Source: Candidatus Woesearchaeota archaeon B3_Woes (GTDB taxonomy: Archaea; Nanobdellota; Nanobdellia; Woesearchaeales; B3-WOES). Taken from it: a stretch of 64,000 nucleotides of DNA. Shown in pieces: positions 34,677-48,679 of the stretch (position 1 is its first letter; every line of letters starts with the position of its first letter). A program made the position numbers and the translations under genes. The DNA lies in contig NJBG01000001.1 of the NCBI GenBank assembly GCA_005222965.1, forward strand, positions 896,167-960,166, read 5' to 3'. A model generated the notes under the pieces. The model was not told the DNA's origin and did no database searches. It saw nothing but the letters and a program-made list of their open reading frames with translations.

Positions 34677-34704
34677 AAATAAAAAATAAAGACATTATTT
34701 CCCA

Positions 34705-35331: not shown

Positions 35332-35405
35332 AACTACATATTATTTTTGATATATTTAAATTTTTGTACTATATATTTATATATCCAAGATTTCTACAAT
35401 ACTAC

Positions 35406-36535: not shown

Positions 36536-36600
36536 CCGAAATATTTATAAATATTGATTATTAATATTAAGAATATCAATAAAATTATTAATATTAATAA
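36536..36600. promoter_or_regulatory. AT-rich imperfect palindrome / repeated tattaatattaa motifs upstream of the AbrB-like gene (candidate operator/promoter)
   Basis: atattgat...atcaata inverted repeat and two copies of attattaatattaa, within 70 bp of the first gene of the MoxR/vWA operon. Confidence 0.3.
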
Positions 36601-36603
36601 TAA

Positions 36604-36873
36604 GGTGCAAAGAAAATAGCTAAAAGTAAGTTTATAGGAAAAGTAAAGATAACCACACAAGGCCAACTAACTTTGCCTTTAGAAGCAAGAAAAGAACTAG
36701 GAATTGACTTAGGAGATGAAGTTTATTGGTACGAAATAGATGGAGTTCTCGTTGTTACAAAAGAATTACTTAGTCAAAAAGATCTAGATAAAACACTAAG
36801 AAATTCCGTAGGAATTTCTGGTGCCAAGAAAATTTCTTCAAAATTTTCTAGGGAAATAAGAGGTAGTAAATAA
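36604..36873 (+). CDS. AbrB/MazE-like SpoVT_AbrB (swapped-hairpin) DNA-binding protein
   Basis: KFIGKVKITTQGQLTLPLEARKELGI matches the AbrB N-domain consensus. The open frame begins at 36604 but has no canonical ATG upstream of TTG 36673, so the start is uncertain. Confidence 0.45.
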   Translation, partial: GAKKIAKSKFIGKVKITTQGQLTLPLEARKELGIDLGDEVYWYEIDGVLVVTKELLSQKDLDKTLRNSVGISGAKKISSKFSREIRGSK

Positions 36874-38630
36874 TGGGTATTGGAAACATATTAGGACTCT
36901 ATGGATTCTTGGTTCTTATCCCTTTTATTCTAATCTACTTATTTAAACCAAAACCAATCGATAAAGCAATACCTTCTTTAATGTTTTTTATCAGAGAACA
37001 AAAACAAAAAAAAGAATTCTCTTTCCTAAAAAGATTACTAACAAACCTACTATTTTTACTACAGTTATTCGCAATACTCGCTCTAGCTTCATCACTTATA
37101 GAACCATTCATAACAGTAACAGAAGATGCAAAATCAGGAAACACAGTTTTAATTATAGATTCATCAGCTTCAATGCAAACTAAAAACAATGGAAATACGA
37201 GATTTGAATTAGCACTAAGTGAAGCAAAAAAAAGAATGCATGGAAAGATTAGTATTGTTTTAGCTTCACTAACTCCTACAATCACTCTGGAAAATGGATT
37301 ACAAAGCGAAGCTTCTAAACATCTCTCAACAGTAATTCCAAAAGAAGCATCTACAAACATCAAAGGATCAATGGATCTAGCAGACGCTTTACTGGAAAAA
37401 ACAAAAGGTAATGTAGTTGTCTTAAGCGACTTTATAACAACAATGGAAAACGATGATCCAATCATCTCTAAAAGATTATTAAACTCAAGGGGAAATTCTG
37501 TTGAATTTGTTAATCTAGCTTCAAAAGCAAACAACCTTGGATTTGTTGATTTAAATATCCAAAAGGATTTTACAGAAGCGTATATAAAGAATTTTAATGA
37601 AGAAGAAAAAGCAATAACAATATCCTTAATAAAAAATAAAGAGACAATAACAAAAAAAGATCTAACAATAAATCCAAGATCAAAAGAAAAAATTGTTTTT
37701 GAAACTTTACCAGGATTATCAACTCTAAAAATCTCTCCAGATGACGATTTAAAAGTAGACAATATTGTATATCTAAGTTCCCCTTTAAAAGACAACATAA
37801 ATATCTTATTAATAACTAACACAATACCAAAAGCACTAAAAAATGCCTTAGAAGCAGCCAAATACATAACAGTTGAAATAGCAGAACCACCTATCATCCC
37901 GGATATTGATCATGATGTTGTAATTGTAAGCAATGTAAACAAAGACGAACTGCTTCCTGGAACATTTAACGACATCAAAAGATATGTTGAAAAAGGAGGA
38001 AACCTAATAATAACATCCCAAGAAGGAATAGCACAACTAGATACATTAGATCTGCTGCCTGTCAACATAATAGGCATGGGTGAACAATCAAACACAATAA
38101 TCTCATCACAAAACGAAATAACAAAAGATATTGAATTTGGAGTAGTTAAAAGATATATTGTTGCAACACCTTTCAAAGATGCTATGTCTTTCCTAAATAC
38201 AGAAGATGAGTCAAGCTTAATAGCCTATAAATCATATCAAAACGGAAAAATCATCTACTATGGTTTATTTGATGATGAAAATGATTTTAAATTTAGCCCA
38301 GACTACCCCATCTTCTGGAACAACCTAATCAACTTTATGCTTGACACAGAAGATATCAATGATTATAATTTTAAGATTGGAGAAAGAACACTAGTCGATA
38401 AAGCAGGATTCTATAAAGAGGATAGCAAACAAGTTGCTTACAATCTTTTAGATGAAGCAGAAAGCGAGGTTAGCAAAGATCCTTTGCTATTTTCAAAAGA
38501 GTATTCTGATTTTGTAGAAAAAAATGTTAAAGAAAACATTGACAAAGATCTCACAATGATTTTGTTAATCCTAGCATGTTTAATACTAATATTTGAAGTA
38601 GCCTATATAAAATTCAGAGGTGATTTATGA
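36873..38630 (+). CDS. BatA-like membrane protein with von Willebrand factor A domain
   Basis: N-terminal double TM helix (aerotolerance BatA_N-like). vWA MIDAS motif VLIIDSSASM. 585 aa. Translationally coupled to the next gene. Confidence 0.65.
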   Translation: MGIGNILGLYGFLVLIPFILIYLFKPKPIDKAIPSLMFFIREQKQKKEFSFLKRLLTNLLFLLQLFAILALASSLIEPFITVTEDAKSGNTVLIIDSSASMQTKNNGNTRFELALSEAKKRMHGKISIVLASLTPTITLENGLQSEASKHLSTVIPKEASTNIKGSMDLADALLEKTKGNVVVLSDFITTMENDDPIISKRLLNSRGNSVEFVNLASKANNLGFVDLNIQKDFTEAYIKNFNEEEKAITISLIKNKETITKKDLTINPRSKEKIVFETLPGLSTLKISPDDDLKVDNIVYLSSPLKDNINILLITNTIPKALKNALEAAKYITVEIAEPPIIPDIDHDVVIVSNVNKDELLPGTFNDIKRYVEKGGNLIITSQEGIAQLDTLDLLPVNIIGMGEQSNTIISSQNEITKDIEFGVVKRYIVATPFKDAMSFLNTEDESSLIAYKSYQNGKIIYYGLFDDENDFKFSPDYPIFWNNLINFMLDTEDINDYNFKIGERTLVDKAGFYKEDSKQVAYNLLDEAESEVSKDPLLFSKEYSDFVEKNVKENIDKDLTMILLILACLILIFEVAYIKFRGDL

Positions 38631-41020
38631 AATTTTTTATTGAATACCCTTTTGTATTGGCTTTAATCATCCCTGTAATCATAGCTTTGATAATCTTAAT
38701 AAATAGAACATTTATCAAATTTAATAATGAACAGGAAAAAAGAGAATATAACAGAGCCCATAAAGGAAAAAGAATATTCATAACAATAACAAGATCCTTA
38801 ATAGCTTTATACCTCCTGATTGCTCTATCTTCTCCATACACTCTAAAAGAAGATGTTGTAAAAGGAGATTATTCACTTAAGATATTGGTTGATAATTCAA
38901 CAAGCATGAGTCTATTTGACAATAGTGTTGTCAATGAGGTATTTAATAGTGTTAAAGAAAAAATACCAGTTACAAAAATGCCTATTGCATCAGGAACATC
39001 ATCTCCAATAGGAAACGCAATAATAAATAATATGCATGGGGATGATAATATACTTCTCATATCAGATGGCCAGAATAACAAAGGCAAAGAACTGGCAAGT
39101 GTTATGTTTTTTGCTAATCTCCTAAACACATCTATAAGCGCTGTTAATGTTAATCCGATAAATGATGATTATTCTGTTGTAATAGAAGGCCCTTCAGAAG
39201 CAATAATGGGAACTGAAAATGAATTTTATATTAGAATTAACAAAGCAGGAAACCCTCCTGCTTATGACATCTCTGCAAAAGTTGATGAAAGACCAGTAAA
39301 TCTAGAAAAAATAGAAAACAATCTATTTAAATTTTCAAAACAATTATCAGAAGGATATCATAAAATAACAGCAACAATAGATACTAATGATTTCTTTAAA
39401 GAAAATAATGTTTACTATAAAACACTGCATGTTTTACCTAAACCAAATGTTTTGTATGTAACTGAAAAAGATTCTAAATTCTTAGATATGCTCAAACCAG
39501 TATATACAATAAATAAAAAAACATCTCTTCCAAACGATTTAAGTGAATATGCCTCCATTATAATAGATGATATTGAAGCCAGTAAACTAAACTCAAAAAC
39601 AGAATTACTAAGTGATTATGTAATAGAAGGAGGAGGATTATTTGTTATAGGGGGAGAAAACGCATTTGATAAAGGAGATTACTCAAACTCTTTATTTGAA
39701 ACAATTCTACCTGTTAAGGTTGGTGAAGCCGGATTTGGTGGTGAATTAGTCACAAGCATAGTAATTGTTCTGGATATCTCAGAAAGCACTGGTCAGGATT
39801 TTAGCAGAAGAAATTCTGAAAGCAAAGTTGATGTTGAAAAATCACTTGCTCTAGAAATAATAAAAGGATTAAGCCTATATGATAAAGTAGGAATAGTTGC
39901 ATTTAATCACGCAGCATACCAAATTTCACCTTTAGGAGTTTTAGGTGAAGTAGAAACAAACATAACAAGCAAGATATCCAAACTACACGATTCAGGAGGA
40001 ACATATGTATTTTCAGGATTAAAAAAAGCACAGTACATGTTAGAGAGTTCATTAGGCAGCAAAAATATCATTTTAATATCAGATGGAGTTGATAGTATTC
40101 CATCTCAATCTCTTGCTCTATCAAAAGAGTTTGCAGAAAAAAACATAAAGCTCTACACAGTAGGGGTTGGAGAGGCCACAAATAGAGCATTTCTGCAAAC
40201 TCTTGCTATTGAAACAGGAGCAGAATATTTTGAACCAACAGAATCACAAAAACTACATATAATATTTTCAAAACAACAAGATCTTCCACCACAAAAAGTT
40301 AAATCATTAGTATTATTCAACAATAATCATTTTATCACAAAAAACCTTGATATAATCGCTGAAGTTAGTGGATTTAACTATGTTGTAAAAAAATCATCAT
40401 CCCAAATGATTGTTTCAATGGGAGATGGAAAACCCATAATAACAGTATGGAGATATGGTCTAGGAAGGGTTGTTGCACTATCAACAGATGATGGAGAAAA
40501 ATGGTCTTCAGAATTACTAAGCAAATCAAATTCAAAACTATTAGTAAGATCTCTTAATTGGGCAATAGGAGATCCTCAAAAGAATTTACCATTCTATACA
40601 AGAGTTAAAGATACTTATTTAGGAGACACATCACAAATAATTGTTAAAAGTGATAAAAAACCTGTTTCAGAAAAACTTAAATTTGAAAAAACAGATGAAA
40701 ACAAATACATATCACACTTTACTCCATCTGAAACAGGATATGAAGAATTTTTCAACACAATAATGGCTGTTAACTATCCTCTTGAATACAAAGATATAGG
40801 ATTTAACAAAGAACTTAGAGATTTAATAGAAATCACTGGTGGAAAAATGTTTGATTCTTCTGATGCAAACGAGATTGTTAAATTTATCAAAAACACAAGC
40901 CTAAGAAAAAAATCAACACCACATTATATAAGATGGCCTTTCATCATAGTTGCATTATCAATACTAATACTAGAGATATTTATAAGAAAGATAATTGAAT
41001 CAAGAAGGAGGGGAAAATGA
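38627..41020 (+). CDS. large membrane-anchored protein with two vWA-like domains (BatB-like)
   Basis: N-terminal TM helices. MIDAS-like LKILVDNSTSMS and VIVLDISESTG...GGTYVFSGL...IILISDGVDS. C-terminal TM helix. 797 aa. Confidence 0.6.
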   Translation: MKFFIEYPFVLALIIPVIIALIILINRTFIKFNNEQEKREYNRAHKGKRIFITITRSLIALYLLIALSSPYTLKEDVVKGDYSLKILVDNSTSMSLFDNSVVNEVFNSVKEKIPVTKMPIASGTSSPIGNAIINNMHGDDNILLISDGQNNKGKELASVMFFANLLNTSISAVNVNPINDDYSVVIEGPSEAIMGTENEFYIRINKAGNPPAYDISAKVDERPVNLEKIENNLFKFSKQLSEGYHKITATIDTNDFFKENNVYYKTLHVLPKPNVLYVTEKDSKFLDMLKPVYTINKKTSLPNDLSEYASIIIDDIEASKLNSKTELLSDYVIEGGGLFVIGGENAFDKGDYSNSLFETILPVKVGEAGFGGELVTSIVIVLDISESTGQDFSRRNSESKVDVEKSLALEIIKGLSLYDKVGIVAFNHAAYQISPLGVLGEVETNITSKISKLHDSGGTYVFSGLKKAQYMLESSLGSKNIILISDGVDSIPSQSLALSKEFAEKNIKLYTVGVGEATNRAFLQTLAIETGAEYFEPTESQKLHIIFSKQQDLPPQKVKSLVLFNNNHFITKNLDIIAEVSGFNYVVKKSSSQMIVSMGDGKPIITVWRYGLGRVVALSTDDGEKWSSELLSKSNSKLLVRSLNWAIGDPQKNLPFYTRVKDTYLGDTSQIIVKSDKKPVSEKLKFEKTDENKYISHFTPSETGYEEFFNTIMAVNYPLEYKDIGFNKELRDLIEITGGKMFDSSDANEIVKFIKNTSLRKKSTPHYIRWPFIIVALSILILEIFIRKIIESRRRGK

Positions 41021-41481
41021 AACAAAACATAAACTTTGGTTTGTTAATATTAATAATAGCAATCTTAATCTCTTTTAGCGGAGCTGTCGTCTATTATCAA
41101 ACCACCTTCAAAGACCTATCAACAGAATATAAAACAAAAATGAGCGAACTACAAAAAGTAACATCTACTCTATTGGAGAAAAAGGCAGAATTAGCAGAAA
41201 CAAGCGCAAAACAAGAAAGCCTTACTGAAAAATATACAGACATAAAAGGGGAAAAAGAAGAATTAGAAGATGATATAGGTGCTCTGGAAAACGAATTATC
41301 ATCTAAAAAAGCAGAACTGCTTGATACAAAAGAAACATTAAGAACATCTCAAGATCAAGTTTTAAGCCTGCAAGGAGATATTGAAGATTACAAAGATGAT
41401 ATAGCTCGTTATAAAGGCGATGTAAATGATCTATGCGATTATATATATAGCCAGGGGTTATCCCATGCTGAGTGTGATTAA
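41017..41481 (+). CDS. membrane-anchored coiled-coil protein
   Basis: N-terminal TM helix followed by a long Glu/Lys heptad-like region. 154 aa. Confidence 0.4.
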   Translation: MKQNINFGLLILIIAILISFSGAVVYYQTTFKDLSTEYKTKMSELQKVTSTLLEKKAELAETSAKQESLTEKYTDIKGEKEELEDDIGALENELSSKKAELLDTKETLRTSQDQVLSLQGDIEDYKDDIARYKGDVNDLCDYIYSQGLSHAECD

Positions 41482-41536
41482 ACAATGAAAATCAATGAAA
41501 ATAAAATTTTCAAGATTTCCATTTTAATAAACTAAA

Positions 41537-42529
41537 ATGAAAAGACCAATAAAATTAGATTTAGGATTTATGAAGATTGAACATCATATAAAACCAACTC
41601 AAACTAAACCTAAATTCATTAAAATAGAACATCATAAAGAACCATACAAACCTAATCTCGAATCTAATATAAATATAAATGTTTTACCTAAATCTATGCA
41701 TCATCTCATAAAGAAGGAAAGAATAATCAAACCAAAACACAAACCAACAAGATTCTCAAAACTAATTAAAGAAATAAAAACACTCTTTGACAACATAATA
41801 ATATTTAACTCTCTACTTATGTTCATAATATTATTTTTAGCTGGTTTTATTATTTTAATGATTCTTAACCTAAACAAACTATTCGCTCTTGTAATCCCTT
41901 TTATTTACCTCATAATAACATTGTTCATAAAACTAAAAGAAAATCAATATCTAAAAGTAGAAAAAAAATTCCCTAATCTCAACGAAAAGATCAGAACAGC
42001 TGCCGACAACTTATATGTTGAAAACCCAGTTGTTGATGAATTAAGACATGAAGTATCCCATGACTTAAGGGGTGTGGATTATGCAAGTTTTTTCAAAGGC
42101 AAATCAACTTCCTATAAAATATTCTTTATCATCTTACTATGTTTTGGTGTAATTTTCTTAGCTAAATATGATATTGATTTCAAGCTTAATTTTGAAAGGG
42201 TATTTGGTTTTATTGAAGGTAGAGGAGAAGGAAACTCAACAGGTATTATTTCAGATATAATAAGTGCCACAACAACCGGCCCTGATGAAGATATATTTGG
42301 AGAAGAGTATCTGGCAGAACTAGGAAACGATCAAATAACGATTAGTATGAATAAAGTAGGATATGAAATAAATATGGATGATGTTAGAGATCCATCTCAA
42401 ACAGAGTTTGAAGATAGTTTATTCCCACCAGACATGGGATTGGAAAAAGCCCAAGTCTATATCCAAAAAGACTTAGAAGAACATAAAGAATTAGTTAAAA
42501 ATTACTTTAAAAATATGGCCCAAAGTTAA
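41537..42529 (+). CDS. membrane protein of unknown function
   Basis: Basic N-terminal tail and three central TM helices. 330 aa. Confidence 0.35.
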   Translation: MKRPIKLDLGFMKIEHHIKPTQTKPKFIKIEHHKEPYKPNLESNININVLPKSMHHLIKKERIIKPKHKPTRFSKLIKEIKTLFDNIIIFNSLLMFIILFLAGFIILMILNLNKLFALVIPFIYLIITLFIKLKENQYLKVEKKFPNLNEKIRTAADNLYVENPVVDELRHEVSHDLRGVDYASFFKGKSTSYKIFFIILLCFGVIFLAKYDIDFKLNFERVFGFIEGRGEGNSTGIISDIISATTTGPDEDIFGEEYLAELGNDQITISMNKVGYEINMDDVRDPSQTEFEDSLFPPDMGLEKAQVYIQKDLEEHKELVKNYFKNMAQS

Positions 42530-44425
42530 ATGAAAACAGAAAATCAAATCAAAATAATAGCATATGTTGCTTTAATAGGAGTTATAACTATTTGGACAGT
42601 CATACTTGGCTCTTTGTTTGGATATATAGACAATAGAATTACAGGATTTGCTGTAGGAGATGGTAATGAAAGCAATGAAACAATAGATTGTAACAACAAC
42701 AGCATATGCGACGGAAATGAAACAATATTAACATGCCCATCTGATTGTAATACCACTAACGAAACTACCTGTAACAATAATAGCATATGTGATGGCAATG
42801 AAACAATATTAACATGTCCATCAGATTGTAATACAACCAACACAACAACATGTAATAATAACGGCACATGCGATACCAATGAAACATTTGAAACATGCCC
42901 ATCAGATTGTGTAGAGACCTGTACACCAGAAGAACAAAGAGATTGTGGAATAGAAGAAGGAATATGTATTACAGGTATTCAAACGTGTTATGAGAATGGA
43001 ACATGGGGAAGTTGCAATGGTTCAATCGAGCCCATGAATGAAACATGCAATGAATTAGATGATGATTGCGATGGAAAAGTAGATGAAGGATATGACTGGA
43101 ATAACAATAGCATAATTGATGATAATGAAACATTCGATTATGATGATGACGGATACTTCCCAAGAACAACCATCTATTTTAATCTATCATGCAGTAGTTA
43201 TTCTGAATATGATTGTAATGATACCAATTCAAGTATACATCCTAATGCACCTGAAATAGAAAATAATGTAGATGATGATTGTGATAGAGAGATAGATGAA
43301 ATAATATGGAATATAACCACAACCCATAAAATTAATCTAGGATATATAAAAAGAAACGGAACAAAAGCCTATCTGCGTGTAGGAGATTGGGCTGTCTTTA
43401 GCTACAAAAAACTTTATGGTACTCTTCTTTATGGAAAAATAGAACTAACAACACTTTCCTCAGCAGGAATTGGAATGACCTTCTCTGTTATCAAAGGAAT
43501 AAATATTAATGTTCTACCAGAAACAAATATGATAATTGGAGAATCAAAACAATATGATATGGATAACGATGGTAAAAATGATATTTCTATTAAATTAGAA
43601 GAAATACAATCTGATTTTAAAGCATACTTGATGATAAAAGATGTTTCAGAATACATCATGCCAACTTGCAATGATAATGGTGTTTGTGATGAAGGAGAAA
43701 CAGCAGCAAACTGCCCAGTAGATTGTTTAGTAATAAATTACTGCAATGAAAATGGAACTTGTGATGCAAACGAAACAATTGAAAACTGTCCAGAAGATTG
43801 CAAAGTAATTGAAGAGAAAAAAGCACCACCACCAGAACCAGTAGAAGAAGAACCTACTCAAGATTGGACATGTAATGATAATAATGTTTGTGAAGCATGG
43901 GAAACAAAACAGGACTGTCCATCTGATTGTAAAAAAGGTCCTATGCAATATATCCTTCTTGGTTTAATAACAACAAGTTTAATGCTATTAGTATTAGGAG
44001 GAATATTAATTAAAACCAAAAACCCCTATGGAATTAACAAAAAACTACAAAAAAACCTTGTTCAATCTATTAATAAAGGGTATGACTTAAACAATATCAA
44101 TTACTATCTAACTACCAAAAAACTTAAACAACCAAAGATAAAAAAAGCACTCAAATACGCATCTGATTTCATGGCTCTCAAAAGAGCAGTTATATTCTAC
44201 CTAAAACAAACTCATGATGAAAAGAAAGTAAAAAAGATGTGTATCAAAAATAAATGGTCTAAAAAACTAACAAATGATGTTTTTGACACTATTAAAATTC
44301 AACCAAAACCAGTTGTTCCTCAAAAAAAGATTGTTCCTTTTCAGCAAAAAAAGTTTATCAATCCCCCAAAAGGAAAAACAGCTCCTAAAACTGAAATTCA
44401 AAAAACCAAACTAAAAAAACTATAA
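42530..44425 (+). CDS. secreted Cys-rich glycoprotein-like protein with six 4-Cys 20-aa modules plus PF11617-like metal-binding motifs and a C-terminal TM anchor
   Basis: Signal/TM helix at the N-terminus. Six copies of C-N-[ND]-N-x-x-C-[DE]-x-x-E-T-x-x-x-C-P-x-D-C, two of them protein-identical but synonymously diverged. DCNDTNSSIHPNAPEIENNVDDDCD matches the putative metal-binding motif family. Many N-x-T sequons. TM helix near residue 480 and a basic cytoplasmic tail. Confidence 0.5.
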   Translation: MKTENQIKIIAYVALIGVITIWTVILGSLFGYIDNRITGFAVGDGNESNETIDCNNNSICDGNETILTCPSDCNTTNETTCNNNSICDGNETILTCPSDCNTTNTTTCNNNGTCDTNETFETCPSDCVETCTPEEQRDCGIEEGICITGIQTCYENGTWGSCNGSIEPMNETCNELDDDCDGKVDEGYDWNNNSIIDDNETFDYDDDGYFPRTTIYFNLSCSSYSEYDCNDTNSSIHPNAPEIENNVDDDCDREIDEIIWNITTTHKINLGYIKRNGTKAYLRVGDWAVFSYKKLYGTLLYGKIELTTLSSAGIGMTFSVIKGININVLPETNMIIGESKQYDMDNDGKNDISIKLEEIQSDFKAYLMIKDVSEYIMPTCNDNGVCDEGETAANCPVDCLVINYCNENGTCDANETIENCPEDCKVIEEKKAPPPEPVEEEPTQDWTCNDNNVCEAWETKQDCPSDCKKGPMQYILLGLITTSLMLLVLGGILIKTKNPYGINKKLQKNLVQSINKGYDLNNINYYLTTKKLKQPKIKKALKYASDFMALKRAVIFYLKQTHDEKKVKKMCIKNKWSKKLTNDVFDTIKIQPKPVVPQKKIVPFQQKKFINPPKGKTAPKTEIQKTKLKKL

Positions 44426-44445
44426 ATAAAAAAGAGGTGAGTATA

Positions 44446-45381
44446 ATGAGAGGATATAAAGATGTTTTTGAAAATTTACATAAGGAAATTGGCAAGGTTG
44501 TTGTAGGACAGAGCGAAGCAATTGAGCAGACACTTATAGCAATGCTTTGTAATGGCAACGCTTTATTAGAAGGGTATCCTGGTCTTGCAAAAACACTGGC
44601 AGTGAGGACTTTATCTCAGATAATGAGTCTAAAGTTCAGCAGAATACAAAATACACCAGACTTAATGCCTTCTGATATTACAGGAACATACATAATTGAA
44701 GAAGTATCTGGAAAAAGAAGCTTTAAGTTTCAACCAGGGCCAGTATTTGCTAATGTTGTTTTAGCAGATGAAATAAACAGAGCAACACCAAAAACACAAT
44801 CTGCTCTATTAGAAGCAATGCAGGAAAAACAAGTTACAGTTGGCAATGAAACATACAAATTAGATGAACCCTTTTTTGTTCTAGCTACTCAAAACCCAAT
44901 TGAACAAGAAGGAACATATCCTTTACCAGAAGCGCAATCAGATAGATTTCTACTAAAGATTAATGTTGGCTATCCAACCAAAGATGAAGAATCTAAGATT
45001 GTAGACAGGTTTACTTCTGAAGAAAGAAATGTTAAATTAAGGGAATTGCTCAACAAAACTAATATTATCTCAATGCAGCAACATGTAAGACAGGTTCCTA
45101 TTGCAAATGACATAAAAAAGAGAGTATTAGATATAGTTACATCAACAAGAGAAAATAAAAATCTTATACAATATGGGGCTTCACCAAGAGCATCAATTGG
45201 ATTAATACTAGCAGCAAAAGCAAGAGCCTTGATTAATGGCAGAAATCACGTTAGTAATGAAGACGTGAATATTATGGCTTACCCTGTTTTAAGGCATAGG
45301 ATAATCTTAAACTTCGAAGCAGAAAGAAAAGGATTGTCTCCAGATAACGCTATAAAACACATTTTAGATCATGTAAAATAA
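44446..45381 (+). CDS. MoxR-family AAA+ ATPase
   Basis: Walker A GYPGLAKT, Walker B VVLADEINRA and sensor regions typical of MoxR. The preferred start is ATG 44446, after an agaggtga SD-like sequence. Confidence 0.85.
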   Translation: MRGYKDVFENLHKEIGKVVVGQSEAIEQTLIAMLCNGNALLEGYPGLAKTLAVRTLSQIMSLKFSRIQNTPDLMPSDITGTYIIEEVSGKRSFKFQPGPVFANVVLADEINRATPKTQSALLEAMQEKQVTVGNETYKLDEPFFVLATQNPIEQEGTYPLPEAQSDRFLLKINVGYPTKDEESKIVDRFTSEERNVKLRELLNKTNIISMQQHVRQVPIANDIKKRVLDIVTSTRENKNLIQYGASPRASIGLILAAKARALINGRNHVSNEDVNIMAYPVLRHRIILNFEAERKGLSPDNAIKHILDHVK

Positions 45382-45391
45382 AAGAGGTAGA

Positions 45392-46948
45392 ATGAAGTAT
45401 AGTCCTTTAGAGAAAAAAGTAGAGAGAATTACTAAAAAGAATAAAATTCCTATAACTATAGTTACTTTTATCCTTCTTGTTGGACTGTTTATTGTTTATA
45501 ATTACAAACCCTCTGAAGAAAGTATAGAAAGGGAGTTTCTTGCACCACCAATAACTAATAAAACTTTTATGTTTAAAGAAGGGATCATATCAAATAATCT
45601 TTTTATTGAATTTAATATAACTCTTGAAGAAACAGGGATATATAGAATTAATGCAGAATTAAAAGATAATGAAGATAACATATTTTATCCTACTGGATCT
45701 AATAAATTTAATCTTAGCTCCGGCGAAAATACAGTCTTTCTTAATTTTAATGCAACTCAACTATACCTAAATAAAATAAATGGGTCTTATGAATTAACAA
45801 GATTAGATATTCAAAGAAAAGACTTTAAAATAAAGCTTAAGAATGTTTATAACACATCTGTTTACAATTATACTGATTTTGAATATATAAAAATATCAAT
45901 TAATCAAACACCAGAAGAATTAATTAACCAAACTCCAGAAGAAACAATCAACCAAACCCCTGAAGAAACCATTAATCAAACACCAGAAGAATTAATTAAC
46001 CAAACTCCAGAAGAAACAATCAACCAAACCCCTGAAGAAACCATTAATCAAACTCCAGAAGAGGTAATAAATAAAACACCTGAAGAAACCATAAACCAAA
46101 CTCCAGAAGAAACAATCAATCAAACACAAGATATCATTAACCAAACAAAAGAAATAATCAACCAAACCATAGAAGAAACAATAAATCAGACAGACAATCA
46201 AACAATAAACCAAACCCCTGAAGAAACCATTAATCAAACACCAGAAGAAACAATAAACAAAACAATCAATGACACAAACAATGAAATAATTGAAGAAATA
46301 AACACTAGAACCATCACCAGCGGTGGAGGAGGAGGGGGAGGTGGAGGAAGCTCTAACACAAAAACATACGCTTTTGGGGAATTAACTTCTCCTATCCAAC
46401 TAAGCTTAATTAGAAACAATATAGTTACATTTTATTTAAAAGAAGAATATCATAAAATTAACGTTATTAAAATAGGAAAAGATTATGTAGAACTAACAAT
46501 AAAATCAGATCCTATAACTGTTTTAGTTTATATAGGCCTAACAAAAAGGTTAGACATTAATAATGACAGGGTAGATGATATATATATAAAATTAAATGAT
46601 ATCAAATCAAGAAAAGCTGAAATTACTATAGGCAGAATTAAGCCAAAAATAAAATTAATATTCTGTAATAATAATGGGGTTTGTGATAAAGGAGAGAACT
46701 CAGCAAACTGCCCTAAAGATTGTCCTAAAGAAAAAGTTATCTCAGAACCAGTAAAAAAAGCACCAAAATATATTGAAAAGATAATATGCGATTATAATGA
46801 AATATGCGATAATGATGAAACCACTATGACATGCCCAACTGATTGTAAAAGAAACTATAAAGACAAGATTATTGTTAGTTTAATAACACTACTTGCAATA
46901 ATTATGATTTGTTTTATTGTTTTTGAGTATAAACATCATCAGGAATAA
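45392..46948 (+). CDS. membrane-anchored repeat protein: NQT octapeptide tandem repeats, poly-Gly, two C-terminal 4-Cys modules
   Basis: N-terminal TM helix. About 25 copies of INQTPEET-like units, each carrying an N-glycosylation sequon. A G9 tract. CNNNGVCDKGENSANCPKDC and CDYNEICDNDETTMTCPTDC modules. C-terminal TM helix. Confidence 0.5.
   Translation: MKYSPLEKKVERITKKNKIPITIVTFILLVGLFIVYNYKPSEESIEREFLAPPITNKTFMFKEGIISNNLFIEFNITLEETGIYRINAELKDNEDNIFYPTGSNKFNLSSGENTVFLNFNATQLYLNKINGSYELTRLDIQRKDFKIKLKNVYNTSVYNYTDFEYIKISINQTPEELINQTPEETINQTPEETINQTPEELINQTPEETINQTPEETINQTPEEVINKTPEETINQTPEETINQTQDIINQTKEIINQTIEETINQTDNQTINQTPEETINQTPEETINKTINDTNNEIIEEINTRTITSGGGGGGGGGSSNTKTYAFGELTSPIQLSLIRNNIVTFYLKEEYHKINVIKIGKDYVELTIKSDPITVLVYIGLTKRLDINNDRVDDIYIKLNDIKSRKAEITIGRIKPKIKLIFCNNNGVCDKGENSANCPKDCPKEKVISEPVKKAPKYIEKIICDYNEICDNDETTMTCPTDCKRNYKDKIIVSLITLLAIIMICFIVFEYKHHQE
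45895..46270 (+). repeat. 24-nt-period tandem repeat array (encodes the INQTPEET units), including an exact 72-nt higher-order duplication
   Basis: aaccaaactccagaagaaacaatcaaccaaacccctgaagaaaccattaatcaaacaccagaagaattaatt occurs twice, at about 45927 and about 45999. Confidence 0.8.
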
Positions 46949-47036
46949 TGAAATATGCCAATAACTTTAAAAACAACAAATGGTCCATAATGTTAATTAA
47001 TGATGTTTTAAACAGCTTTAAAAAAAGAGGCAACAA

Positions 47037-47888
47037 ATGATAGACACATCTTTTTTAGATCATCTAAAGAAATTTAGTCTAATTGTAAACAAAAGAGTAA
47101 CATCTATTTATTCAGGCCAAAAACTATCAACAGCAGCTGGAAGAGGAATAAGCTTTAGAGACCACAGAATCTATTCTTTTGGAGATGACTTTAGATCAAT
47201 TGATTGGAAAGTCTTTGCACGTACAGACGACCTATACATTAAAAATTATGAAGAAGAAAGAAATCTTAGTGTTCATATCCTTGTTGATTATTCTGCTTCA
47301 ATGAATTTTGGAAAACCAAGATCAAAATTTGATTACGCTGCAATGATTGGTGTTGGATTTGCATACTTAGCAATGAAAGATAATGAAAAATTCCAATTTG
47401 CGACATTCTCAGATAAATTAGACCTATTCCAACCTAGAAGGGGAATGCACCAACTAGCATCAATGGTAGATCACCTAAACAATATAAAAATTGAAGGCAA
47501 AACAGACCTATTCAACACTTTATTATCTTATAAAAATTTAATCGGATCAAAATCCCTTATAATAATTATCTCAGATTTGTTATTTGACCCAGAACAGATC
47601 AAAGATTCATTAATAATGTTAGGAAAGCACGATATAAAATTAATCCAGGTTTTAGATAAACAAGAAAGAAACATTAATATGGAAGGAGATTTTAGATTAA
47701 AAGATTCTGAAACAAAAGACGAACTAAGAACTTTTATAAGCCCAAGACTAGTGCAAAACTATAACAAAATGCTGGATGGACATACTGCAAAAATAAAAGA
47801 TATATGCAATGGTTTAGGGGTAGAATTTTATCAAGCAACTTCAAGTACTCCAATCTTTGATACATTTTATGAGGTTCTTAAAAGATGA
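47037..47888 (+). CDS. DUF58-family protein (vWA-like, MoxR partner)
   Basis: GISFRDHRIYSFGDDFRSIDWKVFARTDDLYIKNYEEERNLSVHILVDYSASM is the conserved DUF58 core. Confidence 0.75.
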   Translation: MIDTSFLDHLKKFSLIVNKRVTSIYSGQKLSTAAGRGISFRDHRIYSFGDDFRSIDWKVFARTDDLYIKNYEEERNLSVHILVDYSASMNFGKPRSKFDYAAMIGVGFAYLAMKDNEKFQFATFSDKLDLFQPRRGMHQLASMVDHLNNIKIEGKTDLFNTLLSYKNLIGSKSLIIIISDLLFDPEQIKDSLIMLGKHDIKLIQVLDKQERNINMEGDFRLKDSETKDELRTFISPRLVQNYNKMLDGHTAKIKDICNGLGVEFYQATSSTPIFDTFYEVLKR

Positions 47889-48679
47889 TAACAAAAAAAG
47901 ATATCAAACTTCCAAAACATAAATCAACTTCACATAAAGGACAGAATGGAGAAGTGTTAATCATTGGTGGAAATGAAGATTATATTGGTTGTCTAGCTCT
48001 AGCTGGTTTAGCAGCATTAAGAACAGGAATTGACTGGATTACAATAGCAGCTCCGGAAAAAACAGCATGGGCAATAAGCTGCCTATCTTCAGACTTAATA
48101 ACAAAAAAATGTAAAGGGAAATATTTCACACTAAAAAATTACAAAGAAATAATGGATTTAGTTGAAAAACACGATGCTATCTTAATAGGAAATGGCATTG
48201 GACAAAATAAAGAAACAAAATTATTCATTAAAAAGTTGGTAAAAAATATTAAAAAGCCAAAAGTCATAGATGCAGATGGAATAAAAGCAATCAGCCTAAA
48301 AGAACTAGATAATTCAATACTATGCCCTCATAAAAAAGAATTTGAATTATTACTAAAAAACACAAAAATTAAAGAAAAAAATCTAAAAAAACACATCAAA
48401 AATAATATAATTGTAAGAAAAGGAAAAATAGATCAAATAATAACCAAAACTAAAACATTCCATAATAAAACAGGAAACGAGGCAATGACAAAAGCAGGAA
48501 CAGGAGATGTTTTAGCTGGTCTAGCAGTTGGTTTTTTAGCTCAGGGATTAACTCCAAAACAATCTGCAATAAACGCAGCATATATAAATGGAAAAATGGG
48601 AGATTATTTAAAAAAGAAAAAAGGATACAGCTTTATAGCATCAGATTTAATCCAGGATTATAAAAAATTATTAAAATAA
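47885..48679 (+). CDS. YjeF C-terminal domain protein / ADP-dependent NAD(P)H-hydrate dehydratase-like
   Basis: GGNEDYIGCLALAGLAALRTG, VIDADGI and AGTGDVLAGLAVGFLAQG are YjeF_C (carbohydrate kinase-like) motifs. Confidence 0.65.
   Translation: MITKKDIKLPKHKSTSHKGQNGEVLIIGGNEDYIGCLALAGLAALRTGIDWITIAAPEKTAWAISCLSSDLITKKCKGKYFTLKNYKEIMDLVEKHDAILIGNGIGQNKETKLFIKKLVKNIKKPKVIDADGIKAISLKELDNSILCPHKKEFELLLKNTKIKEKNLKKHIKNNIIVRKGKIDQIITKTKTFHNKTGNEAMTKAGTGDVLAGLAVGFLAQGLTPKQSAINAAYINGKMGDYLKKKKGYSFIASDLIQDYKKLLK

What the first reader, a model, noticed from the sequence alone, without database searches (positions are those of the whole stretch)
36536..47888. Rearranged MoxR/DUF58/BatA-vWA operon headed by an AbrB-like regulator and interleaved with sequon-rich surface proteins carrying a recurrent 20-aa 4-Cys module
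Eight or nine same-strand, translationally coupled genes run in this order: AbrB-like, BatA-like vWA, a double-vWA membrane protein, a coiled-coil anchor, a membrane protein, a Cys-module secreted protein, MoxR AAA+, an NQT-repeat protein and DUF58. The MoxR/DUF58/vWA core is a known partnership (the Bat cluster). Here it is split by two large extracytoplasmic proteins. Both carry the module C-N-[ND]-N-x-[ITV]-C-[DE]-x-x-E-[TN]-x-x-x-C-P-x-D-C: six copies in one protein and two in the other. One also has PF11617-like DCxDxxxxxHPxAxExxNxxDDDCD motifs. I do not recognise the 4-Cys module as a named domain. Two protein-identical copies differ at synonymous sites, which implies selection on the peptide rather than recent duplication.
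Basis: partly seen in the sequence, partly recalled or inferred. Interest (0 to 1): 0.65.

Follow-up and report, generated by a model that had tools for sequence, protein, structure and literature searches.

The report
Archaeal MoxR operon with surface glycoproteins
This is the ordinary archaeal MoxR ATPase/DUF58/vWA membrane-complex operon which, in one small group of Woesearchaeota, has gained one or two genes for sugar-coated, cysteine-rich surface proteins built partly from a very common but still uncatalogued 20-residue repeat; it is useful for database curation but is not a new kind of system.

Summary
Nine same-strand genes (36616-47888) encode AbrB-like, BatA/vWA, vWA, coiled-coil, DUF7502, Cys-module protein, MoxR, NQT-repeat protein and DUF58. 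There are exactly eight 4-Cys modules (6+2). PF11617 motifs are present. Two modules have identical peptides but differ at 7 synonymous sites.

The interpretation needs three corrections:
- The order is not rearranged. BatA-vWA-CC-DUF7502-MoxR-DUF58 is the standard order in other Nanoarchaeia and in Halobacteria; Methanosarcinales use a permuted order.
- The Cys-module gene is an insertion specific to a Woesearchaeal subclade and is conserved in five further metagenome loci. The second gene, between MoxR and DUF58, sits in a variable slot: NQT protein, a 2620-aa S8 protease, or nothing.
- The module is not lineage-specific. It is a minority (CNNNxxC) variant of a widespread CG[ND]GxC[DE]xGExxxxCPxDC repeat, found in 7,744 protein clusters of Bacteria and Archaea with up to 24 copies. 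No Pfam, NCBIfam or PDB entry recognises it. Its nearest named relative is TIGR02232/PF13948.

New here: both window proteins and the S8 giant share a C-terminal cassette of a beta-domain, modules and a TM anchor. Two of the three also share a conserved cytoplasmic tail.

Function is inferred: an outward-facing vWA complex driven by cytoplasmic MoxR, with glycosylated stalk proteins as its partners. Interest is moderate.

The parts
36557..36602 (.). Two 19-nt AT-rich, partly palindromic repeats (ATTATTAATATTAA[G/T]AATA, 27 nt apart) just upstream of the AbrB-like gene. Candidate promoter or operator; function not shown.
   Evidence: repeat finder. The block is conserved in L005 and partly in L001. 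In a 29% GC genome, AT palindromes can arise by chance.
36616..36873 (+). AbrB/SpoVT (MazE_antitoxin-fold) small DNA-binding protein of about 85 aa, with a probable ATA start. No toxin partner follows it, so it is most likely the operon regulator.
   Evidence: PF04014, E=3.5e-7, 30.5 bits against a cutoff of 24.7. The Pfam match begins upstream of the first canonical start codon (TTG 36673). ATA 36616 aligns with the ATG of L001 and L006 and is shared by L005. An SD-like AAGGTG lies at 36602-07. Orthologous small ORFs head the operon in L001, L005, L006 and L010.
36873..38630 (+). Membrane protein with a BatA_N double-TM anchor, a vWA domain (MIDAS DSSAS), DUF7407, DUF7408 (flavodoxin/GATase1-like) and a C-terminal TM. 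The large domain is predicted to face outward.
   Evidence: Pfam; TIGR02226 weak hit; TM segments at about aa 1-26, 54-83 and 555-583. The loop between TM1 and TM2 is rich in K and R. The vWA domain of a BatA-type protein has been shown experimentally to be periplasmic (BB0173, PMC5700661).
38627..41020 (+). Second membrane protein with the same topology: double TM, an unassigned N-terminal region, a vWA domain (MIDAS DISES, aa 378-546), a GATase1-like domain and a C-terminal TM.
   Evidence: Pfam VWA E=2.5e-14 and GATase1_like E=1.4e-9. A second vWA domain is not confirmed.
41017..41481 (+). Protein with an N-terminal TM and a coiled coil, ending in a Cys pair.
   Evidence: Only generic coiled-coil Pfam hits; TM at aa 3-29. 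The position and the C-terminal Cys pair are conserved as far as Halobacteria (L038 8388-9041).
41537..42529 (+). DUF7502 membrane protein with 3 TMs, a basic N-terminus and an acidic C-terminus. It always lies immediately upstream of MoxR in genomes without the insertion.
   Evidence: PF24334, E=1.7e-10. The haloarchaeal counterpart scores E=5.9e-99. Gene order.
42530..44425 (+). Cys-module surface glycoprotein (631 aa, 35 Cys, 24 sequons). It consists of a signal/anchor, three modules, a MopE-motif region, a beta-domain, three modules, a TM and a conserved cytoplasmic tail. It is a subclade-specific insertion.
   Evidence: Orthologues (39-76% identity) sit at the same position in L001/2, L003/4, L005, L006 and L007. 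The gene is absent from 34 other archaeal loci.
42689..42910 (+). N-terminal array of three 4-Cys modules (42689-42748, 42770-42829, 42851-42910) with an 81-nt period and sequon-rich linkers (NTTNETT).
43211..43300 (+). PF11617 (MopE-type 'putative metal-binding') motif: the best stretch, aa 228-257. A second stretch lies upstream.
43322..43648 (+). All-beta domain of about 110 aa with a DxDxDG loop (DMDNDGKNDISI). This is the first element of the shared C-terminal cassette.
   Evidence: AF2 predicts about 10 strands with pLDDT around 80-88. The domain is homologous to NQT protein aa 332-420 and to L001 giant aa 2338-2430. It has no Pfam hit and no significant PDB match.
43667..43930 (+). Membrane-proximal array of three 4-Cys modules (43667-43726, 43742-43801, 43871-43930).
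43940..44422 (+). C-terminal TM (aa 471-496) followed by a conserved Lys-rich cytoplasmic tail predicted as a helical domain (aa about 497-590).
   Evidence: TM. Alignment A8 shows strong conservation. AF2 predicts helices with pLDDT about 70-86. The tail is shared with the L001 S8 giant. No Pfam hit.
44437..45381 (+). MoxR AAA+ ATPase (AAA_3 + AAA_lid_2), with no TM and therefore cytoplasmic. The true start is probably ATG 44446, giving the 311 aa seen in orthologues.
   Evidence: Pfam E=1.1e-62. Walker A (GYPGLAKT) and Walker B (LADEINR) were read from the sequence. Orthologues are 80-92% identical.
45392..46948 (+). NQT-repeat surface glycoprotein (518 aa, 25 sequons). It consists of an N-terminal TM, a beta region, about 15 copies of an 8-aa INQTPEET sequon repeat, a Gly run, a cassette beta-domain, two modules (46664-46723, 46787-46846) and a C-terminal TM. 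It occupies the variable slot.
   Evidence: Orthologues are present in L005 and L088 (69-71% identity).
45897..46264 (+). Tandem 24-nt repeat (15.6 copies) encoding the N-Q-T sequon array.
   Evidence: The orthologues carry different repeat units (INITLNET) but keep the sequons.
47037..47888 (+). DUF58 protein (vWA-like, DYSAS motif), with no TM and therefore cytoplasmic. It is the usual immediate neighbour of MoxR.
   Evidence: Pfam E=7.3e-40. It is adjacent to MoxR in all loci that lack a slot gene.

Best explanation
WHAT IT IS
The locus is the ordinary archaeal version of the MoxR(AAA_3)-DUF58-BatA/vWA membrane-complex operon, headed by a small AbrB/SpoVT-type regulator.

SHOWN
- The seven-gene core (AbrB, BatA-vWA-DUF7407/7408, vWA-GATase1-like, TM-coiled-coil, DUF7502, MoxR, DUF58) occurs in this same order in other Nanoarchaeia and in Halobacteria.
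- In one Woesearchaeal subclade a type-I surface glycoprotein gene is inserted between DUF7502 and MoxR.
- In some members a second such gene sits between MoxR and DUF58.
- These inserted proteins share a C-terminal cassette: a beta-domain with a DxDxDG loop, 2-3 copies of a 20-aa 4-Cys module and a TM anchor. Two of them also share a conserved cytoplasmic helical tail. Their N-terminal 'payloads' differ: Cys-module/MopE arrays, a sequon-repeat stalk, or an S8 protease.
- The 4-Cys module is a minority variant of a very widespread, uncatalogued extracellular repeat.

INFERRED MECHANISM
- The two BatA-type proteins put their vWA/MIDAS and flavodoxin-like domains on the outside of the membrane.
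- Cytoplasmic MoxR, with its DUF58 adaptor, uses ATP to assemble or switch this outward-facing complex through the membrane subunits (DUF7502 and the coiled-coil protein).
- The inserted, heavily N-glycosylated proteins are surface-exposed partners or cargo of that complex, probably stalk- or adhesin-like.
- The 4-Cys modules act as small, cross-linked, rigid spacers.
- The conserved cytoplasmic tail is the likely contact point with the cytoplasmic components.
For: FAMILY ASSIGNMENTS.

CORE ORDER IN OTHER ARCHAEA
- Present in L008, L009, L010, L014, L021, L025 (Nanoarchaeia/Woesearchaeota, plus L010, a MAG labelled Methanosarcinales) and in L033, L034, L038, L041 (Halobacteria). Found with HMMs built from the operon proteins.
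- Pfam confirms L038: DUF7502 at E=5.9e-99 and BatA+DUF7407+DUF7408+DUF7406.

INSERTION CONSERVED AND TIGHTLY PACKED
- Seen in five further loci at 39-76% identity.
- The stop of DUF7502 abuts or overlaps the start of the inserted gene.

SHARED CASSETTE
- Cys-module protein against NQT protein: E=2e-19.
- NQT protein against the L001 S8 giant: 43% identity over 194 aa, E=3e-48.
- Cys-module protein against the L001 giant, including the cytoplasmic tail: E=7e-34.
- AF2 gives a confident beta-domain and a helical tail.

EXTRACYTOPLASMIC LOCATION OF THE INSERTED PROTEINS
- TM segments at both ends, 35 and 9 Cys, and a threefold sequon excess.

OUTWARD vWA TOPOLOGY
- Basic loop between TM1 and TM2 (sequence), a weak TIGR02226 hit, and experimental periplasmic placement of the vWA domain of the BatA-type protein BB0173 (PMC5700661).

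MODULE
- Profile search: 7,744 protein clusters at E<=1e-3 and 2,379 at E<=1e-10, with up to 24 copies.
- 115 of the 149 best proteins have an N-terminal hydrophobic leader.
- Strong purifying selection.

PRECEDENT
- Makarova et al. 2015 predicted a secretion or membrane-remodelling complex from archaeal operons that combine a MoxR-type ATPase, vWA proteins, a flavodoxin-like membrane-anchored protein and S-layer/Ig-like surface proteins (PMC5898192).
Against: - No experiment on any member of this archaeal cluster was found.
- Bacterial Bat/MoxR operons still lack a defined biochemical function. PMC3557215, listed, states that no specific function had been shown experimentally.
- Sister Nanoarchaeia run the operon without any Cys-module protein, and the second slot is often empty. 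The inserted proteins therefore cannot be essential parts of the machine.
- No module-bearing ORF lies near the operon in 34 other archaeal loci.
- The BatA-vWA protein has 0 sequons against 5.4 expected. This is odd for an exposed archaeal domain.
- No physical link between the cytoplasmic tail and MoxR/DUF58 was tested.
Confidence: 0.55

Rival explanations
1. Passenger insertion. The two surface-glycoprotein genes are functionally unrelated to the MoxR/vWA machine. They landed in permissive intergenic sites of a well-expressed operon and are kept there only for co-expression.
For: - Closely related Nanoarchaeia and all Halobacteria and Methanosarcinales examined lack them.
- The MoxR-DUF58 slot is empty, holds an NQT protein, or holds a 2620-aa S8 protease.
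- Similar module-bearing proteins also lie outside the operon, behind a second AbrB-like ORF, in L006 and L007.
Against: - The first insertion has kept exactly the same position, with abutting or overlapping stop and start codons, across orthologues down to 39% identity.
- Two independently placed operon genes share the same C-terminal cassette. This is unexpected for random passengers.
Confidence: 0.3
2. Dedicated export or anchoring machine. The core operon is a secretion or insertion system in the sense of Makarova et al. 2015, and the cassette (beta-domain + modules + TM + tail) is the sorting signal of its substrates.
For: - The published prediction concerns related archaeal MoxR/vWA/flavodoxin-like operons with S-layer-like genes (PMC5898192).
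- A conserved cassette combined with freely varying payloads, including a protease, is what one expects of a sorting module.
Against: - The inserted proteins carry ordinary N-terminal hydrophobic leaders, consistent with Sec export.
- No channel-forming component is evident.
- Most genomes with the core operon have no cassette protein nearby.
- Defining components of the published system are not met here: a DUF4350 protein with a signal peptide and one TM, and PF07760 S-layer proteins.
Confidence: 0.15
3. The 4-Cys module is a metal site (Cys4 Zn/Fe, or Cu together with the MopE motifs) rather than a two-disulfide knot, and the proteins act in metal capture for the MoxR system. MoxR relatives are metal-chelatase and cofactor-insertion chaperones.
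For: - Four invariant Cys plus an invariant Glu and Asp in 20 residues.
- The module co-occurs with PF11617 'putative metal-binding motif'.
- MoxR gives weak hits to Mg- and Co-chelatase subunits.
- The organism is probably an anaerobe, in which extracellular disulfides are less certain (inference).
Against: - Arrays of up to 24 copies, used as linkers between unrelated domains in thousands of secreted proteins, fit a structural spacer better.
- In P0121 the module alternates one-to-one with the TIGR02232 repeat, which NCBI's model name (myxo_disulf_rpt) labels as a disulfide repeat.
- No PDB metal site with this sequence pattern was found.
Confidence: 0.15
4. One reading: a rearranged Bat cluster whose novelty lies in a lineage-specific, previously unseen 4-Cys domain.
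For: No Pfam, NCBIfam or PDB match for the module. Gene order is conserved in relatives.
Against: - The order is the standard archaeal one.
- The module occurs in 7,744 protein clusters of Bacteria and Archaea. The window's CNNNxxC form is about 7% of the modules in the best 149 proteins and sits in the same arrays as the common CG[ND]GxC form.
Confidence: 0.05

Closest known systems
Bacterial MoxR (MRP subfamily)-DUF58-BatA/BatB 'Bat' aerotolerance-type operons (Bacteroides, Leptospira, Borrelia BB0170-0176)
   Same: - An AAA_3 MoxR ATPase next to DUF58.
- BatA_N double-TM membrane proteins with vWA/MIDAS domains.
- The vWA domain lies outside the cytoplasmic membrane, as shown for BB0173 (PMC5700661).
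   Different: - No TPR-containing BatB/C/E proteins here.
- Extra archaeal domains (DUF7407/7408, GATase1-like), a TM-coiled-coil protein and DUF7502.
- The vWA genes precede MoxR.
- An AbrB-like gene heads the operon.
- Surface glycoprotein genes are inserted.
Haloarchaeal/Nanoarchaeial BatA(DUF7406/7407/7408)-vWA-CC-DUF7502-MoxR-DUF58 cluster (Pfam DUF families; no published function found)
   Same: The same seven protein families in the same order. The C-terminal Cys pair of the coiled-coil protein is conserved.
   Different: The window's subclade adds one or two cassette-bearing surface glycoprotein genes inside the operon. DUF7406 was not detected in the window protein.
arCOG01314-associated predicted secretion/membrane-remodelling complex (Makarova, Galperin & Koonin 2015, PMC5898192)
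   Same: An archaeal operon that combines a MoxR/GvpN-type ATPase, vWA proteins, a membrane-anchored protein with an extracellular flavodoxin-like domain, small membrane proteins and surface (S-layer/Ig-like) proteins. Its components are mostly extracytoplasmic.
   Different: - The flavodoxin-like domain here is DUF7408/GATase1-like, fused to BatA_N and vWA. It is not a signal-peptide DUF4350 protein (the DUF4350 hit is only E=0.026).
- The surface proteins are Cys-module/MopE glycoproteins, not PF07760 S-layer proteins.
TIGR02232 / PF13948 (DUF4215) 'Myxococcus cysteine-rich (acidic) repeat'
   Same: - The same opening, CG[DN]G-x-h-[ED]-x-GE.
- Both occur in tandem in secreted proteins.
- In P0121 the two repeats alternate one-to-one.
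   Different: - The module is 20 aa with 4 Cys and ends in C-P-x-D-C. TIGR02232 is 38 aa with 6 Cys.
- Neither TIGR02232 nor PF13948 scores the module: they match 1-2 of 79 module-rich proteins and 0 of 55 module pairs.
PF11617 Cu-binding_MopE 'putative metal-binding motif'
   Same: Present in the same protein (aa 228-257 and a second stretch). It is the feature that links this protein to most of its distant database hits.
   Different: It is a separate motif (DCxDxxxxxxPxxxExCNxxDDDCD) in a different part of the protein and does not overlap any 4-Cys module.

Membership tests
MoxR-DUF58-BatA/vWA (Bat-type) operon | AAA_3-type MoxR ATPase with intact Walker A and Walker B motifs | tested here: met
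   PF07726 E=1.1e-62 and AAA_lid_2 E=6e-20. GYPGLAKT and LADEINR were read from the translation.
MoxR-DUF58-BatA/vWA (Bat-type) operon | DUF58 gene adjacent to moxR | tested here: met
   PF01882 E=7.3e-40. It is immediately adjacent in L003, L006, L007 and the other archaeal loci; in the window it is separated by the slot gene.
MoxR-DUF58-BatA/vWA (Bat-type) operon | BatA_N double-TM anchor fused to a vWA domain with a DxSxS MIDAS motif | tested here: met
   PF07584 E=4.7e-10. VWA_2 scores E=8.8e-6 at 26.7 bits, just under its cutoff of 27. DSSAS was read from the sequence.
MoxR-DUF58-BatA/vWA (Bat-type) operon | TPR-containing BatB/BatC/BatE partners | tested here: not met
   No TPR family among the Pfam hits of any of the nine proteins.
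MoxR-DUF58-BatA/vWA (Bat-type) operon | Aerotolerance or envelope-stress phenotype | not testable with these tools
   Needs genetics. The organism is uncultured.
Archaeal DUF7407/7408-vWA-CC-DUF7502-MoxR-DUF58 cluster | BatA protein carrying DUF7407 and DUF7408 | tested here: met
   DUF7408 E=8.1e-45. DUF7407 E=0.0032, which is below its cutoff. The orthologues carry both.
Archaeal DUF7407/7408-vWA-CC-DUF7502-MoxR-DUF58 cluster | DUF7502 membrane protein upstream of moxR | tested here: met
   PF24334 E=1.7e-10. It is directly adjacent to MoxR in loci without the insertion. L038 scores E=5.9e-99.
Archaeal DUF7407/7408-vWA-CC-DUF7502-MoxR-DUF58 cluster | Same gene order across lineages | tested here: met
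   Nanoarchaeia loci L008, L009, L014, L021, L025, plus L010 (labelled Methanosarcinales), and Halobacteria loci L033, L034, L038, L041 share the order. The other Methanosarcinales loci use DUF7502-MoxR-DUF58-BatA-vWA.
arCOG01314-associated predicted secretion system (PMC5898192) | [quoted passage not shown] | tested here: not met
   DUF4350 scores only E=0.026 at 15.2 bits against a cutoff of 30.4. The protein has a BatA_N double TM plus vWA instead.
arCOG01314-associated predicted secretion system (PMC5898192) | S-layer-like proteins of COG4743/PF07760 in the operon | tested here: not met
   No PF07760 hit in any operon protein. One orthologue (P0006) has a weak S_layer_C hit, PF05124.
arCOG01314-associated predicted secretion system (PMC5898192) | COG0714 MoxR/GvpN ATPase plus vWA proteins in one operon with mostly extracytoplasmic components | tested here: met
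TIGR02232 / PF13948 cysteine-rich repeat (as identity of the 4-Cys module) | Match to the family HMM; 6 Cys in about 38 aa | tested here: not met
   None of 55 module pairs match at E<=10. TIGR02232 matches 1 and PF13948 matches 2 of 79 module-rich proteins, and where located (TIGR02232 in P0121) the match lies on separate interleaved repeats.
EGF-like domains (as identity of the 4-Cys module) | Six Cys in three disulfides; significant HMM match | tested here: not met
   Only sub-threshold hits: best E=0.008-0.24 in 5-11 of 55 pairs, with no correction for 55 queries. The module has four Cys, not six.
PF11617 MopE motif (as identity of the 4-Cys module) | HMM match over the module | tested here: not met
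   The best PF11617 stretch is at aa 228-257, and the second lies between the two module arrays, not on any module. Module arrays without MopE motifs give no PF11617 hit.
AbrB/SpoVT (MazE-fold) proteins: transcription regulator or antitoxin | Swapped-hairpin SpoVT/AbrB domain | tested here: met
   PF04014, 30.5 bits against a cutoff of 24.7.
AbrB/SpoVT (MazE-fold) proteins: transcription regulator or antitoxin | Adjacent toxin gene (needed to call it an antitoxin) | tested here: not met
   The next gene, overlapping by 1 nt, is the 585-aa BatA/vWA membrane protein.

The most novel reading that the evidence does not exclude
The operon encodes an integrin-like, inside-out surface device of a DPANN episymbiont. 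In this reading a cytoplasmic AAA+ motor (MoxR with DUF58) grips the conserved cytoplasmic tail of the cassette-bearing glycoproteins, or acts through DUF7502 and the coiled-coil protein. It thereby assembles, activates or releases an outward vWA/MIDAS adhesion complex. The exposed tips would be interchangeable 'payloads' (Cys-module stalk, sequon stalk, S8 protease) delivered on a common C-terminal cassette. Separately, the 4-Cys module would be a genuinely undescribed, cross-domain mini-fold that deserves its own family.
Probability: 0.15. Interest if true: 0.7.

Novelty: new variant of a known kind. Interest (0 to 1): 0.4.

Why it matters
1. A 20-residue, 4-Cys repeat is present in at least 7,744 protein clusters (at 50% identity) of Bacteria and Archaea and is recognised by neither Pfam-A nor NCBIfam. 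A model built from alignment A2 would annotate thousands of 'hypothetical' secreted proteins.

2. The archaeal MoxR/DUF58/vWA/DUF7502 cluster is conserved from DPANN to haloarchaea and methanogens, and I found no published function for it. The Woesearchaeal variant supplies candidate surface partners and a concrete, testable handle: the shared cassette and cytoplasmic tail.

3. For DPANN biology, operon-encoded, heavily glycosylated, anchored surface proteins with swappable payloads are plausible host-contact molecules.

None of this would overturn current views; it refines them.

Tried and rejected
UNPRODUCTIVE OR UNAVAILABLE SEARCHES
- The search for homologous proteins with the two-module alignment A3 returned only six short fragments.
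- The same tool with the NQT-protein cassette returned one fragment. The single-module alignment was too short for the tool.
- The search for related loci with the DUF7502 alignment found nothing in genome contigs. The rerun with MoxR worked.
- The metagenome scan with cassette alignment A8 gave only five loci, three of them already known.
- Foldseek against the PDB gave no match for the two-module model and only insignificant hits (E>=0.01, rmsd>10 A) for the cassette model.
- PDB sequence searches gave only chance hits: Evasin-1 at E=0.14 and topoisomerase I zinc ribbons at E about 0.7.
- Literature searches found nothing for the module strings, the DUF names or the B3_Woes genome.
- The sigma-70 promoter and terminator scan is uninformative for an archaeon, and it found fewer promoter-like sites than the shuffles did.

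READINGS CONSIDERED AND REJECTED
- The module as an EGF, MopE or TIGR02232 domain (HMM tests).
- The AbrB-like gene as an antitoxin (no toxin gene follows).
- A second vWA domain in the 797-aa protein.

LEFT OPEN
- One of 79 module-rich proteins hits NF033662 'acidic double-disulfide repeat'. I could not identify that protein among the ten most acidic candidates.

Full report
ORIGIN AND ANATOMY

The window comes from Candidatus Woesearchaeota archaeon B3_Woes. The 631-aa product of 42530-44425 is 100% identical to CEE44_05065, on a contig of about 1 Mb. The window is about 30% GC. Rfam finds a 121-nt tRNA match at 33792-33912 that ARAGORN does not call, which looks like an intron-containing archaeal tRNA.

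Nine co-directional ORFs fill 36616-47888.
- AbrB/MazE-fold (PF04014).
- BatA_N + VWA_2 + DUF7407 + DUF7408.
- VWA + GATase1_like.
- A TM plus coiled-coil protein.
- DUF7502.
- A Cys-rich protein with PF11617.
- MoxR AAA_3 + AAA_lid_2.
- A repeat protein with no family.
- DUF58.

Four junctions overlap or abut (-1, -4, -4 and 0 nt). The other four have gaps of 10-88 nt.

A six-frame regex scan of all 64 kb finds exactly eight modules, six in 42530-44425 and two in 45392-46948, and none elsewhere.

Both proteins have hydrophobic segments at each end. One has 35 Cys and 24 sequons (8.4 expected). The other has 9 Cys and 25 sequons (7.7 expected). The NQT array is a 24-nt tandem repeat with 15.6 copies.

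Copies 1 and 2 of the module encode the same peptide but differ at 7 synonymous codons. Over the whole 27-codon unit there are 11 synonymous changes and one replaced codon. The 76%-identical orthologue in L005 shows the same pattern between its copies 1 and 3: 6 synonymous and 0 non-synonymous differences. The peptide is therefore under strong purifying selection.

Three details needed correcting:
- The AbrB-like gene starts not at 36536 but most likely at ATA 36616. The Pfam match begins upstream of the first canonical start codon. The ATA aligns with the ATG of the L001 and L006 orthologues and is shared by L005. An AAGGTG lies 8 nt upstream.
- Only one vWA domain is detectable in the 797-aa protein.
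- MoxR probably starts at ATG 44446, which gives the 311 aa seen in all orthologues.

GENE ORDER IN RELATIVES

Contigs encoding homologues of the Cys-module protein (39-76% identity) carry the same order: small AbrB-like ORF, BatA/DUF7407/DUF7408, VWA/GATase1-like, a protein of about 160 aa, DUF7502, the Cys-module protein, MoxR, then DUF58. These are L001/L002, L003/L004, L005, L006 and L007, and also L088 and L090.

The gene between MoxR and DUF58 varies:
- An NQT-type protein in the window, L005 and L088 (69-71% identity).
- A 2620-aa Peptidase_S8/FG-GAP protein in L001, L002 and L090.
- Nothing in L003, L006 and L007.

THE WIDER ARCHAEAL PICTURE

A genome scan seeded with MoxR returned 80 loci. 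I searched the 34 loci closest to the window's MoxR, nearly all labelled archaeal, with HMMs built from the operon proteins. The findings were:
- Other Nanoarchaeia/Woesearchaeota (L008, L009, L014, L021, L025), plus L010 (a MAG labelled Methanosarcinales), have BatA-VWA-CC-DUF7502-MoxR-DUF58.
- Halobacteria (L033, L034, L038, L041) have BatA-VWA-CC, then MoxR-DUF58. In L038 Pfam places a DUF7502 gene in the gap before MoxR.
- In these loci no gene lies between DUF7502 and MoxR or between MoxR and DUF58.
- Methanosarcina, Methanolobus, Methanococcoides and Methanoperedens have DUF7502-MoxR-DUF58-BatA-VWA.
- No module-bearing ORF occurs in any of these loci.

Pfam confirms the haloarchaeal locus L038: DUF7502 at E=5.9e-99, and BatA+DUF7407+DUF7408+DUF7406. 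Its coiled-coil protein ends in the same kind of Cys pair as the window's.

So the order is not 'rearranged'. It is the standard archaeal arrangement, and the Cys-module gene is an insertion specific to a subclade. MoxR is 80-92% identical within that subclade and at most 73% identical outside it.

THE MODULE

Hits from the first protein search showed the same 4-Cys pattern in unrelated bacterial and CPR proteins, usually as CG[ND]GxC[DE]xGExxxxCPxDC. Both forms occur in single arrays, for example in P0018 and P0052.

A profile of 91 copies (A2) was run against 1.84 billion representative proteins. It found 7,744 proteins at E<=1e-3, 2,379 at E<=1e-10 and 358 at E<=1e-30, with up to 24 copies each.

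In the best 149 proteins, 1,364 modules have the 4-residue first loop and 102 have the 5-residue loop used in the window. Of those 149 proteins, 115 have an N-terminal hydrophobic leader. Where sources give names, they say Myxococcota, Deltaproteobacteria, Dojkabacteria, 'archaeon' or 'bacterium', and mostly 'hypothetical protein'.

No catalogued family covers the module:
- 8 array-rich proteins gave no Pfam hit on the arrays at E<=1.
- In 79 array-rich proteins, the most frequent Pfam family matched only 10 of them, and it was Somatomedin_B; where I located that hit (P0054) it lay outside the module array.
- NCBIfam gave likewise nothing general.
- 55 isolated module pairs gave only sub-threshold EGF-type noise in Pfam and nothing meaningful in NCBIfam at E<=10.
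- No PDB sequence matches.
- Motif strings are absent from the searchable literature.

The nearest named relative is TIGR02232/PF13948. In P0121 the module alternates one-to-one with that 6-Cys repeat, and the two share the opening CG[DN]Gxh[ED]xGE. The TIGR02232 model nevertheless scores only its own repeats.

AF2 on two modules gave pLDDT 75: mostly coil, with a short helix at CPxDC. Foldseek found no PDB match for it. Disulfide pairing remains unknown.

A SHARED C-TERMINAL CASSETTE (NEW HERE)

The pairwise matches are:
- The Cys-module protein (aa 265-488) aligns with the NQT protein (aa 332-506) at E=2e-19.
- The NQT protein (aa 325-517) aligns with the C-terminus of the L001 S8 giant (aa 2338-2528) at 43% identity, E=3e-48.
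- The Cys-module protein (aa 331-586) aligns with the giant (aa 2389-2617) at E=7e-34, and this alignment includes the region after the TM.

The cassette consists of:
- A beta-domain of about 110 aa containing a DxDxDG loop.
- Two or three modules.
- A TM anchor.
- In two of the three proteins, a conserved Lys-rich cytoplasmic tail.

Alignment A8 shows that the tail is strongly conserved. AF2 predicts the beta-domain at pLDDT about 80-88 and the tail as a helical domain at about 70-86. Neither has a Pfam hit or a significant PDB fold match.

The N-terminal parts differ completely: module/MopE arrays, a sequon stalk, or an S8 protease with FG-GAP repeats. In NQT orthologues the repeat unit itself changes (INQTPEET against INITLNET) while the sequons are kept.

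MECHANISM

Shown:
- The family memberships, the conserved order, the insertion pattern, the cassette and the selection on the module.

Inferred:
- Topology. The loops between TM1 and TM2 of both BatA-type proteins are rich in K and R, which places the large vWA/flavodoxin-like domains outside. This agrees with the experimental periplasmic location of the vWA domain of Borrelia BB0173 (PMC5700661).
- MoxR and DUF58 have no TM segments and are cytoplasmic.
- I therefore propose that MoxR/DUF58 act through the membrane subunits (DUF7502 and the coiled-coil protein) to assemble or switch an outward-facing vWA/MIDAS complex.
- I also propose that in this subclade the inserted glycoproteins are its surface partners or cargo, that the modules serve as cross-linked rigid spacers, and that the tail is a possible cytoplasmic handle.

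The closest published idea is the secretion or membrane-remodelling complex predicted for arCOG01314 operons, which combine a MoxR-type ATPase, vWA proteins, a flavodoxin-like anchored protein and S-layer/Ig-like proteins (PMC5898192). Two of its defining components are not met here, so this locus works like that system without being a member of it.

The main rival is that the surface-protein genes are passengers. This is supported by their absence from sister lineages and by the variable slot. It is opposed by the fixed, tightly packed position of the first insertion across orthologues down to 39% identity, and by the shared cassette.

VERDICT

The finding is real and mostly well described, but it is less exotic than proposed. 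It is a known kind of operon in its normal archaeal order, with a clade-specific addition of surface glycoproteins. Its Cys module is widespread yet uncatalogued.

It has moderate value in three respects: a clear candidate for a new domain family, a conserved archaeal cluster without a function, and a testable cassette/tail hypothesis. I score interest at 0.4 and classify it as a new variant of a known kind.

Noticed in passing
window 36601-36675: The AbrB-like gene has no ATG, GTG or TTG before its SpoVT/AbrB motif. An in-frame ATA at 36616 aligns exactly with the ATG of the L001 and L006 orthologues and is shared by L005, with an SD-like AAGGTG 8 nt upstream. This is a probable non-canonical ATA start.
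   Followed up: partly
window 36557-36602: Two 19-nt AT-rich, partly palindromic repeats (ATTATTAATATTAA[G/T]AATA) lie 27 nt apart, upstream of the operon. They are conserved in L005 and partly in L001. They may be an operator for the AbrB-like protein, or AT-rich chance.
   Followed up: partly
window 33792-33912: Rfam finds a 121-nt tRNA (48 bits) that ARAGORN does not report. It is probably an intron-containing archaeal tRNA.
   Followed up: no
window 44018-44300 (Cys-module protein aa 497-590); L001 21700-22037; L006 15200-15354: A conserved cytoplasmic helical tail follows the C-terminal TM (motifs GY.L..I.YYL and KNKWSK.ITNDVF). The 908-aa module-bearing protein of L006 ends in a similar motif, GYSKDRIRTVLLRGGWKQDMVDNAF. 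It has no Pfam family and may be a common tail domain of DPANN surface proteins.
   Followed up: partly
window 47885-48679; L003 15239-16227; L006 12491-16190; L007 7930-10166: In relatives a second 47-50-aa MazE/AbrB-like ORF heads a separate cluster. That cluster carries module-bearing surface proteins in L006 and L007, followed by Carb_kinase and YhbY genes, several kb downstream of DUF58. In the window the Carb_kinase gene overlaps DUF58 by 4 nt, so the intervening region is missing.
   Followed up: partly
window 41440-41481; L038 8990-9041: The TM plus coiled-coil protein ends in a Cys pair (LCDYIYSQGLSHAECD). The Halobacteriales counterpart does the same (LCNDEENQNKPEC). This small feature is conserved across phyla and has no known role.
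   Followed up: no
window 43580-43620 (aa 351-363) and 46550-46590: The cassette beta-domain contains a DxDxDG-type loop (DMDNDGKNDISI and DINNDRVDDIYI). A weak FG-GAP hit falls on the same loop in the L001 giant, which suggests a Ca2+ site. The same half-domain followed by a TM also occurs in a small ORF of the unrelated contig L092 (9881-10297).
   Followed up: partly
window 36873-38630: The BatA/vWA protein has no N-x-S/T sequon at all (5.4 expected) and one Cys, although its large domain is predicted to be extracytoplasmic. This is the opposite of the two inserted glycoproteins.
   Followed up: no
window 45897-46264; L005 13380-13629; L088 2500-2950: The sequon-repeat stalk evolves quickly in its unit sequence (INQTPEET against INITLNET/INETINIT) between 70%-identical orthologues, but it always keeps an N-x-T in every unit.
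   Followed up: partly
window 34272-35331 and 35364-36281: Immediately upstream lie a small Cys-rich lipoprotein-like ORF, a Cys-rich PKD-domain secreted protein on the minus strand, and an ORF of about 300 aa whose L005 counterpart hits DegT_DnrJ_EryC1 and MJ1341_C (the L001 counterpart hits MJ1341_C only). The PKD gene is syntenic in L005 and the 300-aa ORF in L001 and L005. A link to surface glycan synthesis is possible.
   Followed up: no
P0121, aa 7-412: The 4-Cys module alternates one-to-one with the 6-Cys TIGR02232 repeat, eight times. The two repeats share their first 10 residues and are probably sister families.
   Followed up: yes
alignment A4 (79 module-rich proteins): One member hits NCBIfam NF033662 'acidic double-disulfide repeat-containing protein' at E=1.2e-41. 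I could not identify which protein it is, or whether the match lies on the modules.
   Followed up: partly
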